Positions 45,763-48,430 of a stretch of 54,059 bases of DNA are shown here, in pieces. The first letter of the stretch is position 1; the number at the start of each line of letters is the position of its first letter. The DNA comes from a virus. Taxonomy: Duplodnaviria > Caudoviricetes. The DNA lies in IMG/VR virus record IMGVR_UViG_3300033150_000652, positions 1-54,059 of that record; one strand, given 5' to 3'. The translations under genes were made by a program, and so were the position numbers. The notes beneath the pieces were generated by a model that was not told the DNA's origin, searched no databases, and saw nothing but the letters and a program-made list of their open reading frames with translations.

Positions 45763-48430
45763 TTAACTCAAGTCGTTCACGTGCTCTAACCGAACGTACC
45801 AATTGTCATTCAGGGACTTGCAATCGTGTGATGCTTTCCAACCCACGCTACCACGTAGGTTCAATGGGTTGTCCGCCCCACCAGAGTCCACTGGCTTGAC
45901 AATCAGTTCCACCGGCCTTACACGTTGACCCGTCATGGTGTGTTCCTCAGTGCCCGCCGTGTCTACTTCCTGCGGTAACGTATTGCCTATGCCAACTATA
46001 CCGTAGGCTTCTTTCAATCTGTTACCCCCCATTTGGGTGGATAGGTCATTTCTGCCTATCTCTCATGGTTTCCCATGAGTTCGGACTATCCCTTGGATTT
46101 GACAATCCCGCTCATTATAGTCTCTGAACGTTCCCCATTTCTGAGGCTTCGCTGCGGGTTACCCAATCCTTAGCCTTTTTAAGCATTCGCGCTTATCCTT
46201 TCGGATTACGCTGTAGCGGCTAAGGCTCTAAGGGCGTTCCTGCAATTTCGAGCGTTTTGCATCGGCAAAGAATTTTCACCGATGAACAGCATGGCATAGA
46301 CATCAGCGTTACTTGCACCTCCATCCGTCCACTCTTTCACATTCGAGGACATGTAGAAGTCGCAGTTCAAGAACGACCCAATGTATCCTGTCTTCATCGG
46401 GTTGCTCTCATCCCGCGCATACGCGCCCTCGAAAGCATTCCGCTCTGTTACTTGTGAACCCTTTCGGGCGGGCTAGTCATTTCTGCTAGCCTCTCATGGT
46501 TTCCCATGAGTTCGGACTGTCGCTTCACCTTGCGGTGTCCCCTCGCTCAACGAGCATTAACATAGTGCATATTCATTTTATAATCAAACATAGGCAACAC
46601 ATATGGACGGATAATATCAAACAGTTTTTGGCCCTCTTTGGCCCCCATTCCCAATACCCAATATTTACCCTTATGCCTCGAAATGCGAGTTGAAATTCCA
46701 AATCGCTCGGTTAGAAACTCTCGCATAATTTCATGTTCTTCACGGCTGAAAGCCTGGGTATGGAAATGAATTTCTCTGCTTTTGGGAGACTTGCGTCCCG
46801 ATGTCAAAACTCGATAGTGGATGGTTAACGAACCATCATCCATATACCAATATGCCAATCCTTGTGCATCCAATGGCATCAGGGCCTGCAAACTTATTGT
46901 TTTTCTTCCATTAGGATACCACCGTTTGCGCAATTTGGTATAGATAGGATGCGTGCGTGTCTCGGCAATTATTGTACCATATCCCCACCCATTATCAGGG
47001 ACCTCTCGCACATTTACGTGCGTTATCTCACGCAAAATAGCCACTTTGTGTAAAAGATACGAGCGTTGTGAGGGACTATGCTGTAGTTTAAGCATCGCAT
47101 GACGCCCCCCGTGGGATACTACAAGGCTTGCATCTCCCAAAATCATACCCGTCAATATGTTCAGCGGAACGGACACTATATGCCCTCCTTTTGCTGCTAT
47201 GTTAATGTCTCTAGTCTCTGCCCCTAGTTCGGAATCAATTCCCATCAGCATCTGCTGACCCTTGGGTCGGGTTGCCATGCGCTTTAGCGTTTAGGCTTTC
47301 CCGTTATTCAGAGGGGATTTAACGTTCCCGAATGCTAAGCGGCCAGGAACGACGGGTCCTGCATTAGAGTTACCCACAATCTGTTACTTGTTAACCCTTT
47401 CGGGCGGATAGGTCATTTCTGCCTATCTCTCCACCTTCACCGTTAGGTTATACGTGGAGTTCGGACTATATCATCACCCACTTGGGGTGCCCCGCTCATA
47501 GTCTCTACACACGCCCACCTTTCGGCTGCTTGGCTCGGTATTACCCTCCTCAGGGCTTCCACCGAATTCACGGGGTTTTCCACCGCATATTGCTACGCGG
47601 CGCACCTGGTTAAACAAGTGTCGGGATGAAGTATCGCCACATACCGCGCCCCCTCCACTGGCAGGGCATCGTTCGCCATAAGCGTGCCCAGGGCCTTCAC
47701 TACGTCCGTATAAGAAATCTTATCGTTCGTAGTATCCAGCCCCGTTCGAGCCGTAGCAGTCCCCGAATACTGCACAGAACCGTTTGCCACTAGGACATCG
47801 CGGGTGAGAGTGTCAATAGACAATCCGCACTGCTCGCCTAGGATAGCACTGAAGTTCTGAAGTATCGGGTCAATGCTGGTCAACTCAAGCACATCGCTAT
47901 GGCGTAGATAGTACCCGTACCAAGAGGGCGTGGCCGTAACCTTCGTAACGCTGGCGCTACCCGCTGCTGGCGTCTGGCCCTCGGTAAGAGCCGTAGTAGT
48001 CGCGCTCAAGGCACCGAACTTACGCCATTGAAGTTTGTTACCCTCATTCTTGTTAATGGTCGCCTTGACCCCCCACCGCCCATGAATGAGCCGTGGTAAC
48101 GCACGGGTCAAGAGTCGCATTTCGTAGTCAATCTGTTACCCCTCGGTTATATTCAGTTTATTAAAGTTCCGAGTGGGCTGGTCATTTCTGCCAGCCTCTC
48201 CACCTTCACTGTTAGGTTATACGTGGAGTTCAGACTATATCATCATCCCAGAGGGATGCTCCCCGCATAGTCGTTACACACGCCCGCCTTTCGGCTGCTT
48301 GGCTCGGTATTACCCTCCTCAGGGCTTCCACCGAATTCAGGGAGTTATTGCCCCATAGTTGCCTATGGGCGACGCACTATCCGTACGTCCGCATTTCATT
48401 GCTAAGCGTACTGGTTGTCTCCGTAGCCAT
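45763..48430 (-). CDS. Major capsid protein (N4-gp56 type), five exons: 48385-48430, 47617-48128, 47345-47376, 46278-46440, 45763-46014; 334 aa spliced
   Basis: Joins give EMRTY/YEMRLL, ILHPDT/WVTLMQDPSFL/NAF and LFIG/KEAYG; family motifs LTEG.TP, YVAILHP and NPLN.RG.VGWK; 1005 nt in frame. Confidence 0.92.
46015..46277 (-). ncRNA. Group I intron 4 (263 nt)
   Basis: P1 caucggU/Gccgaug, P10 aaagaa/uucuuu, P aauugcaggaa, Q aacccgcagc, R uucagagacua, S gggauaguc. Confidence 0.92.
46441..47344 (-). mobile_element. Group I intron 3 (904 nt) carrying a homing endonuclease
   Basis: P1 cguuccU/Gggaacg, P10 gaaugcu/agcauuc, R gcagagacu, S gcgacaguc. Confidence 0.92.
46547..47176 (-). CDS. LAGLIDADG homing endonuclease (two-motif), intron-encoded
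   Basis: LTGMILGDASL and LAYWYMDDGS; GTG at 47176 after AAGGAGG. Confidence 0.92.
   Translation of the reverse strand: MSVPLNILTGMILGDASLVVSHGGRHAMLKLQHSPSQRSYLLHKVAILREITHVNVREVPDNGWGYGTIIAETRTHPIYTKLRKRWYPNGRKTISLQALMPLDAQGLAYWYMDDGSLTIHYRVLTSGRKSPKSREIHFHTQAFSREEHEIMREFLTERFGISTRISRHKGKYWVLGMGAKEGQKLFDIIRPYVLPMFDYKMNMHYVNAR
47377..47616 (-). ncRNA. Group I intron 2 (240 nt)
   Basis: P1 cacU/Ggug, P10 ugg/cca, R guagagacua, S gauauaguc; core nearly identical to intron 1. Confidence 0.9.
48129..48384 (-). ncRNA. Group I intron 1 (256 nt)
   Basis: P1 gacgU/Gcguc, P10 acua/uagu, R guaacgacua, S gauauaguc, terminal G. Confidence 0.92.

What the first reader, a model, noticed from the sequence alone, without database searches (positions are those of the whole stretch)
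46015..48384. The introns are mosaics of shared modules with individually retargeted guide sequences
Introns 1 and 2 have a nearly identical core and the same CCACGTATAACCTAAC.GTGAAGGTGG stem. Introns 3 and 4 share AGTCCGAACTCATGGGAAACCATGAGAG, introns 2 and 4 share GAGATAGGCAGAAATGACCTATCC, and introns 2 and 3 share CGCCCGAAAGGGTT.ACAAGTAACAGA. All keep GCAGAAATGAC in a covarying stem and end GTAACAGA..G. Each P1/P10 guide matches only its own site. This implies spread to new sites within one gene with guide reprogramming, plus recombination between introns.
Basis: partly seen in the sequence, partly recalled or inferred. Interest (0 to 1): 0.8.

Follow-up and report, generated by a model that had tools for sequence, protein, structure and literature searches.

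The report
Four group I introns in capsid gene
A phage capsid gene is split by four self-splicing group I introns whose shared sequence blocks are mostly stock parts of a very widespread phage intron class, and only introns 1 and 2 show a clear recent exchange of sequence with each other.

Summary
Four group I introns (256, 240, 904 and 263 nt) interrupt an N4-gp56-type major capsid gene on the minus strand of a complete 54-kb phage.

- GCAGAAATGAC in a covarying stem, and the GTAACA..G end, occur in at least 100 IMG/VR stretches.
- The intron 2/4 block occurs exactly in 91 other IMG/VR stretches, in 58 contexts.
- The core of the intron 3/4 block occurs in 12 others, and some of those are closer to intron 3 than intron 4 is.

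Two relations are specific to this genome:
- Introns 1 and 2 share two blocks, 73 nt at 96% and 31 nt at 97%. None of 170 class introns is as close, and there is no exact match elsewhere. Their P1, P2, P3, P8, P9a and tail are no more alike than random class members.
- Introns 2 and 3 share a tail, but this relation is marginal.

My best reading is patchy gene conversion between introns 1 and 2. Guide reprogramming is not shown, and splicing itself is inferred, not observed.

The parts
48385..48430 (-). Capsid exon 1 (46 nt, ATG at 48430)
   Evidence: Joins in frame to exon 2. The spliced product is colinear with 10 uninterrupted homologues.
48129..48384 (-). Intron 1 (256 nt), group I, no ORF, has P2 with a GCAA loop and a long P9
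   Evidence: RF00028 at 51.0 bits, above the gathering score of 50. U.G at the 5' splice site, P1 5 bp, P10 4 bp, terminal G.
48266..48338 (-). I1 copy of shared block 1 (J3/4-P4-P5-P6-P7 5' strand, 73 nt). The I2 copy lies at about 47569-47497
   Evidence: Edit distance 3 to I2. The best of 170 class introns is at distance 20. Contains most of a 53-nt exact run.
48196..48226 (-). I1 long P9 hairpin (31 nt). The I2 copy lies at 47457-47427
   Evidence: Edit distance 1 to I2. The best of 170-176 class introns is at 7. The 27-mer has 0 exact matches in IMG/VR.
47617..48128 (-). Capsid exon 2 (512 nt)
   Evidence: PF25209 Phage_capsid_4, weak (E 6.2e-4, 20.6 bits, below the cut-off of 27). 70 full-length relatives at E<=0.001; the closest are 332-343 aa (full range 304-433 aa) and up to 60% identical.
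47377..47616 (-). Intron 2 (240 nt), group I, no ORF
   Evidence: RF00028 at 41.5 bits, below the gathering score of 50. P1 4 bp, plus 2 intron-intron pairs read by eye. P10 3 bp. Terminal G.
47345..47376 (-). Capsid exon 3, a 32-nt mini-exon between introns 2 and 3
   Evidence: Needed for the reading frame and for colinearity (WVTLMQDPSF) with homologues.
46441..47344 (-). Intron 3 (904 nt), group I with a LAGLIDADG endonuclease ORF looped out between the P7 5' strand and P3'
   Evidence: No Rfam hit. P1 7 bp and P10 7 bp. A cofold of the two ribozyme halves gives P3, P4-P6, P8, P9, P9a and P9b.
46547..47278 (-). LAGLIDADG_2 homing endonuclease ORF (243 aa from the first ATG). The likely real start is GTG 47176, behind AAGGAGG at 47190-47184
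   Evidence: PF03161, E 7.9e-36. Shine-Dalgarno and GTG positions. The best IMG/VR relative is only 40% identical.
47197..47207 (-). 5' arm of the 11-bp stem that closes the ORF loop of intron 3. The 3' arm is at 46555-46565
   Evidence: The two arms are exact reverse complements.
46278..46440 (-). Capsid exon 4 (163 nt)
46015..46277 (-). Intron 4 (263 nt), group I, no ORF, no P2, extended P5
   Evidence: RF00028 at 53.1 bits. P1 7 bp, P10 6 bp. 74% identity over 204 nt to Bacillus phage introns.
45763..46014 (-). Capsid exon 5 (252 nt including the stop codon)
46045..46055 (-). GCAGAAATGAC loop of the P9a hairpin in I4. The same motif lies at 46476-46486 (I3), 47412-47422 (I2) and 48181-48191 (I1)
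   Evidence: The stem covaries across the class: 92 of 100 matches have 6 contiguous pairs, with 46 distinct stems.

Best explanation
The capsid gene carries four members of one very widespread class of phage group I introns. The class has a stereotyped 3' extension:
- a P9 hairpin, either short with a GAAA loop or a long variant;
- the linker GAGAG;
- a P9a hairpin whose stem varies freely under the fixed loop CAGAAAUGA;
- a P9b hairpin;
- the tail (A)GUAACA(R)nnG.

Most blocks that the four introns share are stock alleles of this class, not evidence of exchange among the four.

The exception is introns 1 and 2. Two blocks of them are nearly identical and are found nowhere else: J3/4 to the P7 5' strand, and J8/7 to the end of P9. 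The segments between and around these blocks (P1/guide, P2, P3, P8, P9a, tail) are no more alike than random class members.

I read this as patchy gene conversion between two co-resident introns of the same subtype. The conversion tracts start and end in linkers that are invariant across the class (AAUUCGGUG, GACUAU, AUAGUCYGAAC, GAGAG). The shared tail of introns 2 and 3, which lie 32 nt apart, may be a third small tract.

Shown: the anatomy, the splice junctions, the guide pairings, and which blocks are generic and which are specific. Inferred: self-splicing, the conversion mechanism and its direction.
For: Four introns and junctions:
- The spliced CDS is 1005 nt and 334 aa. It aligns with 10 uninterrupted homologues with no gap at any junction.
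- Rfam RF00028 hits I4, I1 and I2.
- P1 and P10 fit each intron's own junction.
- The I3 core folds with the ORF looped out.

Generic blocks.

I1/I2 mosaic:
- 180 of 257 columns are identical overall, and the differences are clustered. The pair has a 53-nt exact run and only 4 differences in its best 75-column window. 0 of 20,000 permutations reach either value.
- The 73-nt block is at edit distance 3 and the 31-nt P9 at 1, with 0 of 170 class introns as close.
- The other regions sit at class background. The number of the 170 class introns as close as I2 is: P1/guide 170, P2 19, J2/3+P3 129, P3'-P8 35, P9a 136, tail 128.
- The block sequences have 0 exact matches in the metagenome or IMG/VR collections.
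- 11 other same-locus pairs of class introns (about 255-930 nt apart) are only 22-56% identical, with longest exact runs of 9-15 nt, so I1/I2 is exceptional.
Against: - No reads or RNA data could be obtained, so neither the assembly nor splicing is verified.
- A single continuous conversion tract would also have homogenised the 21-nt P3'-P8 island. Two tracts, or patchy repair, must be assumed.
- The two blocks have similar divergence (3 of 73 and 1 of 31). That fits one duplication event as well as it fits conversion.
- The class background is a pattern-selected sample of about 170-176 unique sequences, not a census, and records very near this genome may have been hidden by the tools.
- The I2/I3 tail (edit distance 3 of 30) is barely closer than an unrelated intron in L288 (distance 4), so a third tract is weakly supported.
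Confidence: 0.5

Rival explanations
1. Duplication with retargeting. One intron (I1 or I2) transposed to the second site in the same gene, by reverse splicing or by ectopic DNA-level insertion. Its guide was then reprogrammed, and P2, P3, P8, P9a and the tail were replaced or diverged.
For: - The near-identical catalytic blocks and P9 are found nowhere else.
- The two blocks have similar divergence.
- Both introns share an architecture that I3 and I4 lack: a P2 with a GCAA loop and a long P9.
- The helices differ by compensatory changes: 11 base pairs are changed on both sides.
- There is a precedent for related introns at different sites: passages of PMC3984707, and the abstract-level listing of PMC1299323.
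Against: About 105 nt would have had to reach class-background distance while 104 nt kept 96-97% identity. That needs at least four module replacements or extreme diversifying selection on top of the transposition. The two target sites share no guide complementarity, with cross pairings of 1/0.
Confidence: 0.25
2. All four introns descend from spread within this gene, and they swapped modules with one another, producing the pairwise pattern I1-I2 (P9), I3-I4 (P9), I2-I4 (P9a), I2-I3 (tail).
For: - By eye, the three 3' modules each come in two forms, distributed so that all four combinations occur for every pair of modules.
- In samples not selected for them, the shared alleles are uncommon. 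The I3/I4 P9 hairpin is exact in 0 of 171, and the I2/I4 P9a hairpin in 3 of 111.
Against: - The I2/I4 hairpin is exact in 91 other IMG/VR stretches.
- The I3/I4 hairpin is exact in 12 others, and outside introns are closer to I3 than I4 is: 46/48 against 40/48.
- I4's tail is closer to outside introns (edit distance 3) than to I1 (7). I1's P9a is identical to L042 and L079.
- The cores of I3, I4 and I1/I2 are mutually as distant as random class members, at edit distance 28-30 of 73.
Confidence: 0.12
3. Four fully independent acquisitions. Every similarity, including I1/I2, reflects convergence on favoured hairpins.
For: Short hairpin alleles do recur in otherwise unrelated introns. I1's P3'-P8 is at edit distance 2 of 21 from L377. 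The P9a allele shared by I2 and I4 occurs in 58 contexts.
Against: A 53-nt exact run spanning loops and non-conserved stems, with 0 of 170 class introns within distance 19, cannot be convergence.
Confidence: 0.05
4. Assembly chimera. The shared blocks were created by mis-joining of reads at repeats in a metagenome assembly.
For: The record is a metagenome-derived IMG/VR contig, and its longest internal repeat is 53 nt.
Against: All five exons are present, in order and in frame. Every intron has a guide that fits both of its own flanks. A mis-join at the I1/I2 repeat would have deleted exon 2. The other blocks, of 28 nt or less, are shorter than a read.
Confidence: 0.03

Closest known systems
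Staphylococcus phage Twort orf142: three group I introns in one ORF
   Same: Several group I introns lie in one phage protein gene. Two of them are highly similar to each other, and a very short exon sits between two introns: 23 nt in Twort, 32 nt here. I saw passages of PMC10136302 describing this. The original 1999 paper was not seen.
   Different: Here there are four introns and the gene is the major capsid gene. The similar pair (I1/I2) flanks the 512-nt exon, not the mini-exon. The similarity is confined to two blocks. Exon skipping is untested.
Brochothrix phage A9 ribonucleotide reductase intron (NC_015253)
   Same: I4's whole 3' extension aligns at 79% over 75 of 76 nt. The host gene is annotated in four pieces, two of them very short (26 and 47 codons), so it is multi-intron with mini-exons.
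   Different: The gene and the phage family (Herelleviridae) differ. I did not examine its other introns.
Bastillevirinae group I introns, e.g. Bacillus phage vB_BsuM-Goe27 (PMC11878797)
   Same: I4 aligns at 74% over 204 nt, including P9 and the GCAGAAATGAC hairpin with a different, compensated stem. The paper (abstract, section 16 and passages read) says phage introns fit the IA2/IA3 labels poorly.
   Different: Those introns lie in other genes. The paper's structure figures are in supplements that I could not open, so I cannot say whether this 3' extension is described there.
Related group I introns at different rDNA sites, attributed to reverse splicing (PMC1299323; review PMC3984707)
   Same: The idea is the same: an intron moves to a new site whose flank pairs with the guide.
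   Different: [quoted passage not shown] Here the two sites share no guide complementarity.
Capsid-gene introns in other phages: mycobacteriophage LittleE (PMC3706429) and Vibrio phage 1.232.O (MG592596)
   Same: An intron with a homing endonuclease lies in a major capsid gene. Splicing was shown for LittleE (passages read). The Vibrio phage intron aligns with the I4 core at 76.5% over 135 nt and sits between the capsid CDS and an HNH gene.
   Different: Each has a single intron, and the endonuclease families differ.

Membership tests
Group I intron (Rfam RF00028) | Covariance-model score at or above the gathering score (50 bits) | tested here: inconclusive
   I4 53.1 and I1 51.0 pass. I2 at 41.5-41.9 is below the threshold. 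I3 gives no hit because of its 640-nt ORF loop. The model is insensitive for this class: only 3 of 13 class loci scanned gave a hit.
Group I intron (Rfam RF00028) | 5' splice site after a U that forms a U.G pair in P1 with an internal guide sequence | tested here: met
   Met in 4 of 4 introns, with P1 of 5, 4, 7 and 7 contiguous pairs starting at the U.G.
Group I intron (Rfam RF00028) | Intron ends in G, and the guide also pairs with the 3' exon (P10) | tested here: met
   All four end in G. P10 is 4, 3, 7 and 6 pairs.
Group I intron (Rfam RF00028) | Core helices P3-P8 present | tested here: met
   cmscan alignments for I1, I2 and I4. For I3, a cofold of the two halves gives P3, P4-P6 and P8. 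P7 of I3 was read by eye only.
Group I intron (Rfam RF00028) | Precise excision restores the host reading frame | tested here: met
   The 1005-nt CDS is colinear with 10 homologues at all four junctions.
Group I intron (Rfam RF00028) | Self-splicing activity | not testable with these tools
   No RNA or DNA sequencing run was listed.
LAGLIDADG homing endonuclease (Pfam PF03161) | Profile match above the cut-off, and an ORF in a peripheral loop of the intron | tested here: met
   124 bits against a cut-off of 25, E 7.9e-36. The ORF loop is closed by an 11-bp stem. Cleavage activity and target were not tested.
N4-gp56-type major capsid protein (Pfam PF25209) | Profile match, and full-length colinearity with family members | tested here: met
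   Exon 2 alone scores 20.6 bits, below the cut-off of 27. However, 62 of the 70 relatives found carry PF25209, and the spliced product aligns end to end with 10 of them.
   Generic: the I2/I4 block (91 exact elsewhere), the I3/I4 block (12), the loop and the end motif (at least 100). Specific: only the I1/I2 blocks and, marginally, the I2/I3 tail.
Twort orf142-type multi-intron gene | Three or more group I introns in one phage ORF, including a closely similar pair | tested here: met
   There are four introns. I1/I2 are 70% identical overall and 96-97% in two blocks. Exon skipping, the functional hallmark, is not testable here.

The most novel reading that the evidence does not exclude
The four introns are a window onto a pan-phage intron class that evolves by shuffling small hairpin modules at invariant linker sequences. 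Within one transcript, co-resident copies exchange patches (I1/I2, perhaps I2/I3), while their long-range and peripheral helices (P2, P3, P8, P9a, P9b) stay different. That difference would keep neighbouring ribozymes from forming hybrid folds that skip exons, a natural counterpart of the engineered 'differentiated tandem introns' of PMC10136302.

Hints:
- Across the class, the same 24-nt P9a hairpin sits next to both P9 architectures and several tail types.
- 20 of 223 class loci carry two or more class introns, often about 255-313 nt apart.
- The I1/I2 helices differ by 11 compensated base pairs.
Probability: 0.2. Interest if true: 0.7.

Novelty: new member of a known kind. Interest (0 to 1): 0.45.

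Why it matters
Four self-splicing introns in a 1-kb gene that must be expressed at very high level is an extreme case of intron load in a phage. A 32-nt exon lies between two of the ribozymes. The I1/I2 pair is a clean natural example of two co-resident group I ribozymes with identical catalytic blocks but different guides and different P2, P3, P8 and P9a helices. That makes it a ready substrate for testing exon skipping, hybrid-ribozyme formation and guide swapping.

The negative result matters for the scan as well. Short identical hairpins between phage group I introns are not evidence of exchange unless they are checked against the class, which holds hundreds of members that Rfam's model largely misses.

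Tried and rejected
- **Close capsid relatives from exon 2 alone:** none confirmed.
- **Whole-domain identity ranking with free end gaps:** rejected. Cheap gaps inflated every identity (median 0.79-0.86) and gave nonsense ranks. It was replaced by module-wise edit distances. One search failed on a regular expression and was rewritten.
- **Genome-wide scan for alternative guide targets (second half):** not used. The pair count ran on past the guide into P2, so its numbers are not meaningful.
- **Rfam on the capsid relatives with insertions (L123, L128, L135):** nothing at the gathering score or at E<=0.01. The nature of those insertions stays open.
- **Sequencing runs:** none was listed for 45763-48430, and no RNA holder was listed.
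- **The genome search 'relatives':** not available for a virus record.
- **Paper PMC113830:** not held. The original Twort orf142 paper was not seen.
- **Supplements:** closed, so the secondary-structure supplements of PMC11878797 could not be checked for this 3' extension.
- **'Not in print':** None listed one, but that is a narrow search.
- **Subgroup label:** I considered and dropped one (IC3-like or IA2). It rested on recall only.
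Full report
**What is there.** The window is a complete 54,059-base virus record with direct terminal repeats. On the minus strand, between 48430 and 45763, lies a major capsid gene in five exons: 48430-48385, 48128-47617, 47376-47345, 46440-46278 and 46014-45763. Four insertions separate them: I1 48384-48129 (256 nt), I2 47616-47377 (240 nt), I3 47344-46441 (904 nt) and I4 46277-46015 (263 nt). Joining the exons gives 1005 nt and 334 aa.

Exon 2 alone finds 70 longer proteins at E<=0.001. 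The closest are 332-343 aa (the full range is 304-433 aa), most carry Pfam PF25209, and some are named N4-gp56 family major capsid protein by their source. The spliced product aligns with 10 of them without any gap at the four junctions. The junctions fall at ..MRT|Y....HPDT|W....SF|L.. and ..FIG|K...

**They are group I introns.**
- Rfam RF00028 scores I4 at 53.1 bits and I1 at 51.0, both above the gathering score of 50. I2 scores 41.5, below it. I3 is not found.
- Every intron follows a U, ends in G, and has a guide near its 5' end that pairs with both flanks. Contiguous P1/P10 pairs are 5/4, 4/3, 7/7 and 7/6.
- I3 holds a LAGLIDADG_2 ORF (E 7.9e-36). An 11-bp stem (47207-47197 with 46565-46555) loops this ORF out between the P7 5' strand and P3'.
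- A Shine-Dalgarno sequence at 47190-47184 and a GTG at 47176 look like the real start of the ORF. With the ORF removed, the two halves of I3 cofold into P3, P4-P6, P8, P9, P9a and P9b.
- Splicing itself is inferred. No sequencing run could be listed.

Shared exact runs are 53 nt (I1/I2), 28 nt (I3/I4), 26 nt (I2/I4) and 15+12 nt (I2/I3). The longest shared run in 300 shuffles of I2 and I4 was 6-13 nt. Among the four junctions each guide fits only its own, with off-diagonal pairings of at most 2/1 or 1/3. The I1 and I2 guides are short, though, and other positions in the CDS score as well or better by the same count.

**Most blocks are generic to a large intron class.**
- The pattern AGTCYGAACTC..GCAGAAATGAC found 100 IMG/VR stretches. 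All show the same 3' extension:
  - a P9 hairpin, either short with a GNRA-type loop or a long variant containing AUAAC;
  - the linker GAGAG;
  - a 5-6 bp stem under the loop CAGAAAUGA;
  - a third hairpin;
  - the tail (A)GTAACA(R)nnG.
- The stem under that loop covaries. 92 of the 100 matches have six contiguous pairs, in 46 different stems.
- The same signature occurs in prokaryote genome contigs. They come from many phyla.
- It also occurs in named cultured phages:
  - Bacillus phage Goe27;
  - Brochothrix phage A9, where I4's whole 3' extension aligns at 79% and the host ribonucleotide reductase gene is annotated in four pieces;
  - Lysinibacillus, Thomasclavelia and Lactococcus phages.
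- The I2/I4 block GAGATAGGCAGAAATGACCTATCC is exact in 91 other IMG/VR stretches, in 58 different contexts. These include both P9 types and several tail types.
- The 23-nt core of the I3/I4 block is exact in 12 other stretches, and the full 28-mer in 4 of those 12. L226 and L227 match I3's 48-nt P9+P9a at 46/48, whereas I4 matches at 40/48.
- I4's tail is closer to outside introns (edit distance 3) than to I1 (7). I1's P9a hairpin is identical in L042 and L079.

**What is specific to this genome.**
- The I1/I2 P9 hairpin has no exact match in IMG/VR.
- The I1/I2 P5 block has none in the metagenome contigs.
- The I2/I3 tail has none in either collection.
- Records very near this genome may have been withheld by these tools.

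I compared I1 region by region with I2 and with 170 class introns.

| Region of I1 | Length (nt) | Edit distance to I2 | Class introns as close as I2 (of 170) | Best class intron |
|---|---|---|---|---|
| J3/4 to P7 5' strand | 73 | 3 | 0 | 20 |
| P9 | 31 | 1 | 0 | 7 |
| P1/guide | 14 | 5 | 170 | 3 |
| P2 | 21 | 6 | 19 | 5 |
| J2/3 + P3 | 11 | 3 | 129 | 1 |
| P3'-P8 | 21 | 7 | 35 | 2 |
| P9a | 21 | 5 | 136 | 0 |
| Tail | 46 | 19 | 128 | 13 |

The clustering of differences is far beyond permutation: 0 of 20,000 reach it. Between I1 and I2, 11 base pairs are changed on both sides: 5 in P2, 2 in P3, 1 in P8 and 3 in P9a.

As a comparison, 20 of 223 class loci carry two or more class introns. I examined 11 such pairs (about 255-930 nt apart). 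They are 22-56% identical, with longest exact runs of 9-15 nt. Co-resident class introns are therefore normally not close paralogues, and I1/I2 is exceptional.

The I2/I3 tail (edit distance 3 of 30) ranks first of 177 for both introns. An unrelated intron in L288 is at distance 4 from I2, so this link is weak.

**How I read it.** I1 and I2 are a real mosaic. Two blocks have recent common ancestry, and they are set in segments that are unrelated beyond class level. The block edges coincide with linkers that are conserved across the class: AAUUCGGUG, GACUAU, AUAGUCYGAAC and GAGAG. That is where homologous recombination between diverged class members would be expected to start and resolve.

I therefore favour patchy gene conversion between two resident introns of the same subtype (about 0.5). 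The alternative is duplication to a new site followed by guide reprogramming and replacement of at least four modules (about 0.25). The similar divergence of the two blocks fits either. Their cores are as far from each other and from I1/I2 as random class members, at edit distance 28-30 of 73.

An assembly artefact is unlikely. All exons are present and in frame, and each guide fits its own flanks. I could not test this with reads.

**Survey of related capsid genes.** An alignment-based scan gave 546 confirmed relatives in IMG/VR, of which the best 80 were kept. None of the 80 has an insertion at any of the four sites, and none has the class loop motif inside the gene. Four have insertions elsewhere: L123 (about 222 nt at residue 49/50), L128 and L130 (about 995 nt near residue 85, with a LAGLIDADG-like ORF on the opposite strand) and L135 (about 1 kb near residues 101-116). 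L136 shows a frame break only. Rfam finds nothing in the three of these insertion loci that I scanned: L123, L128 and L135. The intron 3 endonuclease has no close relative; the best of 40 loci is 40% identical.

**Comparison with what is known.** The nearest precedent is Twort orf142: three group I introns in one ORF, two of them highly similar, a 23-nt exon between them, and exon skipping (passages of PMC10136302). That paper also shows that making tandem introns different in P1, P10 and peripheral helices suppresses exon skipping. This makes the compensated differences between I1 and I2 worth testing, although I1's P3 5' strand could still form 4 of 5 pairs with I2's P3 3' strand (by eye), so discrimination there would be weak.

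Related introns at different sites have been ascribed to reverse splicing in rDNA. The review passages I read say direct evidence is lacking (PMC3984707; PMC1299323 seen as a listing only). Capsid-gene introns are known singly, in LittleE (PMC3706429 passages) and in Vibrio phage 1.232.O. The Bastillevirinae study notes that phage introns fit the classical subgroups poorly (PMC11878797, section 16). I give no subgroup label.

**Verdict.** The sequence facts are confirmed. The mosaic-by-exchange reading is largely explained away by class-wide stock modules. One real and unusual mosaic pair remains (I1/I2), in a capsid gene with an unusually high intron load. I file it as a new member of a known kind, of moderate interest.

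Noticed in passing
window 47345-47376 (-): Exon 3 is only 32 nt long, so the ORF-less intron 2 sits 32 nt from the insertion site of the endonuclease-bearing intron 3. Intron 2 would probably be co-converted whenever intron 3 homes. This is an inference.
   Followed up: no
window 47176-47207 and 46555-46565 (-): The LAGLIDADG ORF probably starts at GTG 47176, behind AAGGAGG at 47190-47184, rather than at ATG 47278 inside P5. An exact 11-bp stem encloses the ORF loop.
   Followed up: partly
L006-L105, L226-L447 (IMG/VR and prokaryote genome contigs): A very widespread group I intron class has a fixed CAGAAAUGA loop on a freely covarying stem and a GUAACA..G tail. Rfam RF00028 at the gathering score found only 3 of the 13 class loci scanned, so the class is under-detected by the standard model.
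   Followed up: partly
L097, L016, L043, L081, L088, L105, L368, L283, L322, L445, L089 and others: 20 of 223 class loci carry two or three class-type 3' domains on one strand, often about 255-313 nt apart. These are tandem introns separated by very short exons, so multi-intron genes with mini-exons are common for this class.
   Followed up: partly
L448 (Brochothrix phage A9, NC_015253 82184-83660): The ribonucleotide reductase gene is annotated as four CDS pieces, two of them only 26 and 47 codons long. A class-type intron 3' domain ends exactly at the start of the last piece.
   Followed up: no
L123 341-562; L128 311-1305; L130; L135 2053-3048: Four of the 80 related capsid genes have insertions at other positions. 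The one in L128 carries a LAGLIDADG-like ORF on the opposite strand. Rfam gave no match in L123, L128 or L135 (L130 was not scanned), so their nature is unknown.
   Followed up: partly
L005 (Vibrio phage 1.232.O, MG592596 7594-7728): The region after the annotated 'major capsid protein' CDS aligns with the core of intron 4 and is followed by an HNH nuclease gene. The capsid gene of that phage is probably intron-split and its annotation truncated.
   Followed up: no
L377 and window 48245-48265 (-): I1's P3'-P8 segment is at edit distance 2 of 21 from an otherwise unrelated intron in a Peptococcaceae genome contig. Short hairpin alleles recur across the class in unrelated backgrounds.
   Followed up: no
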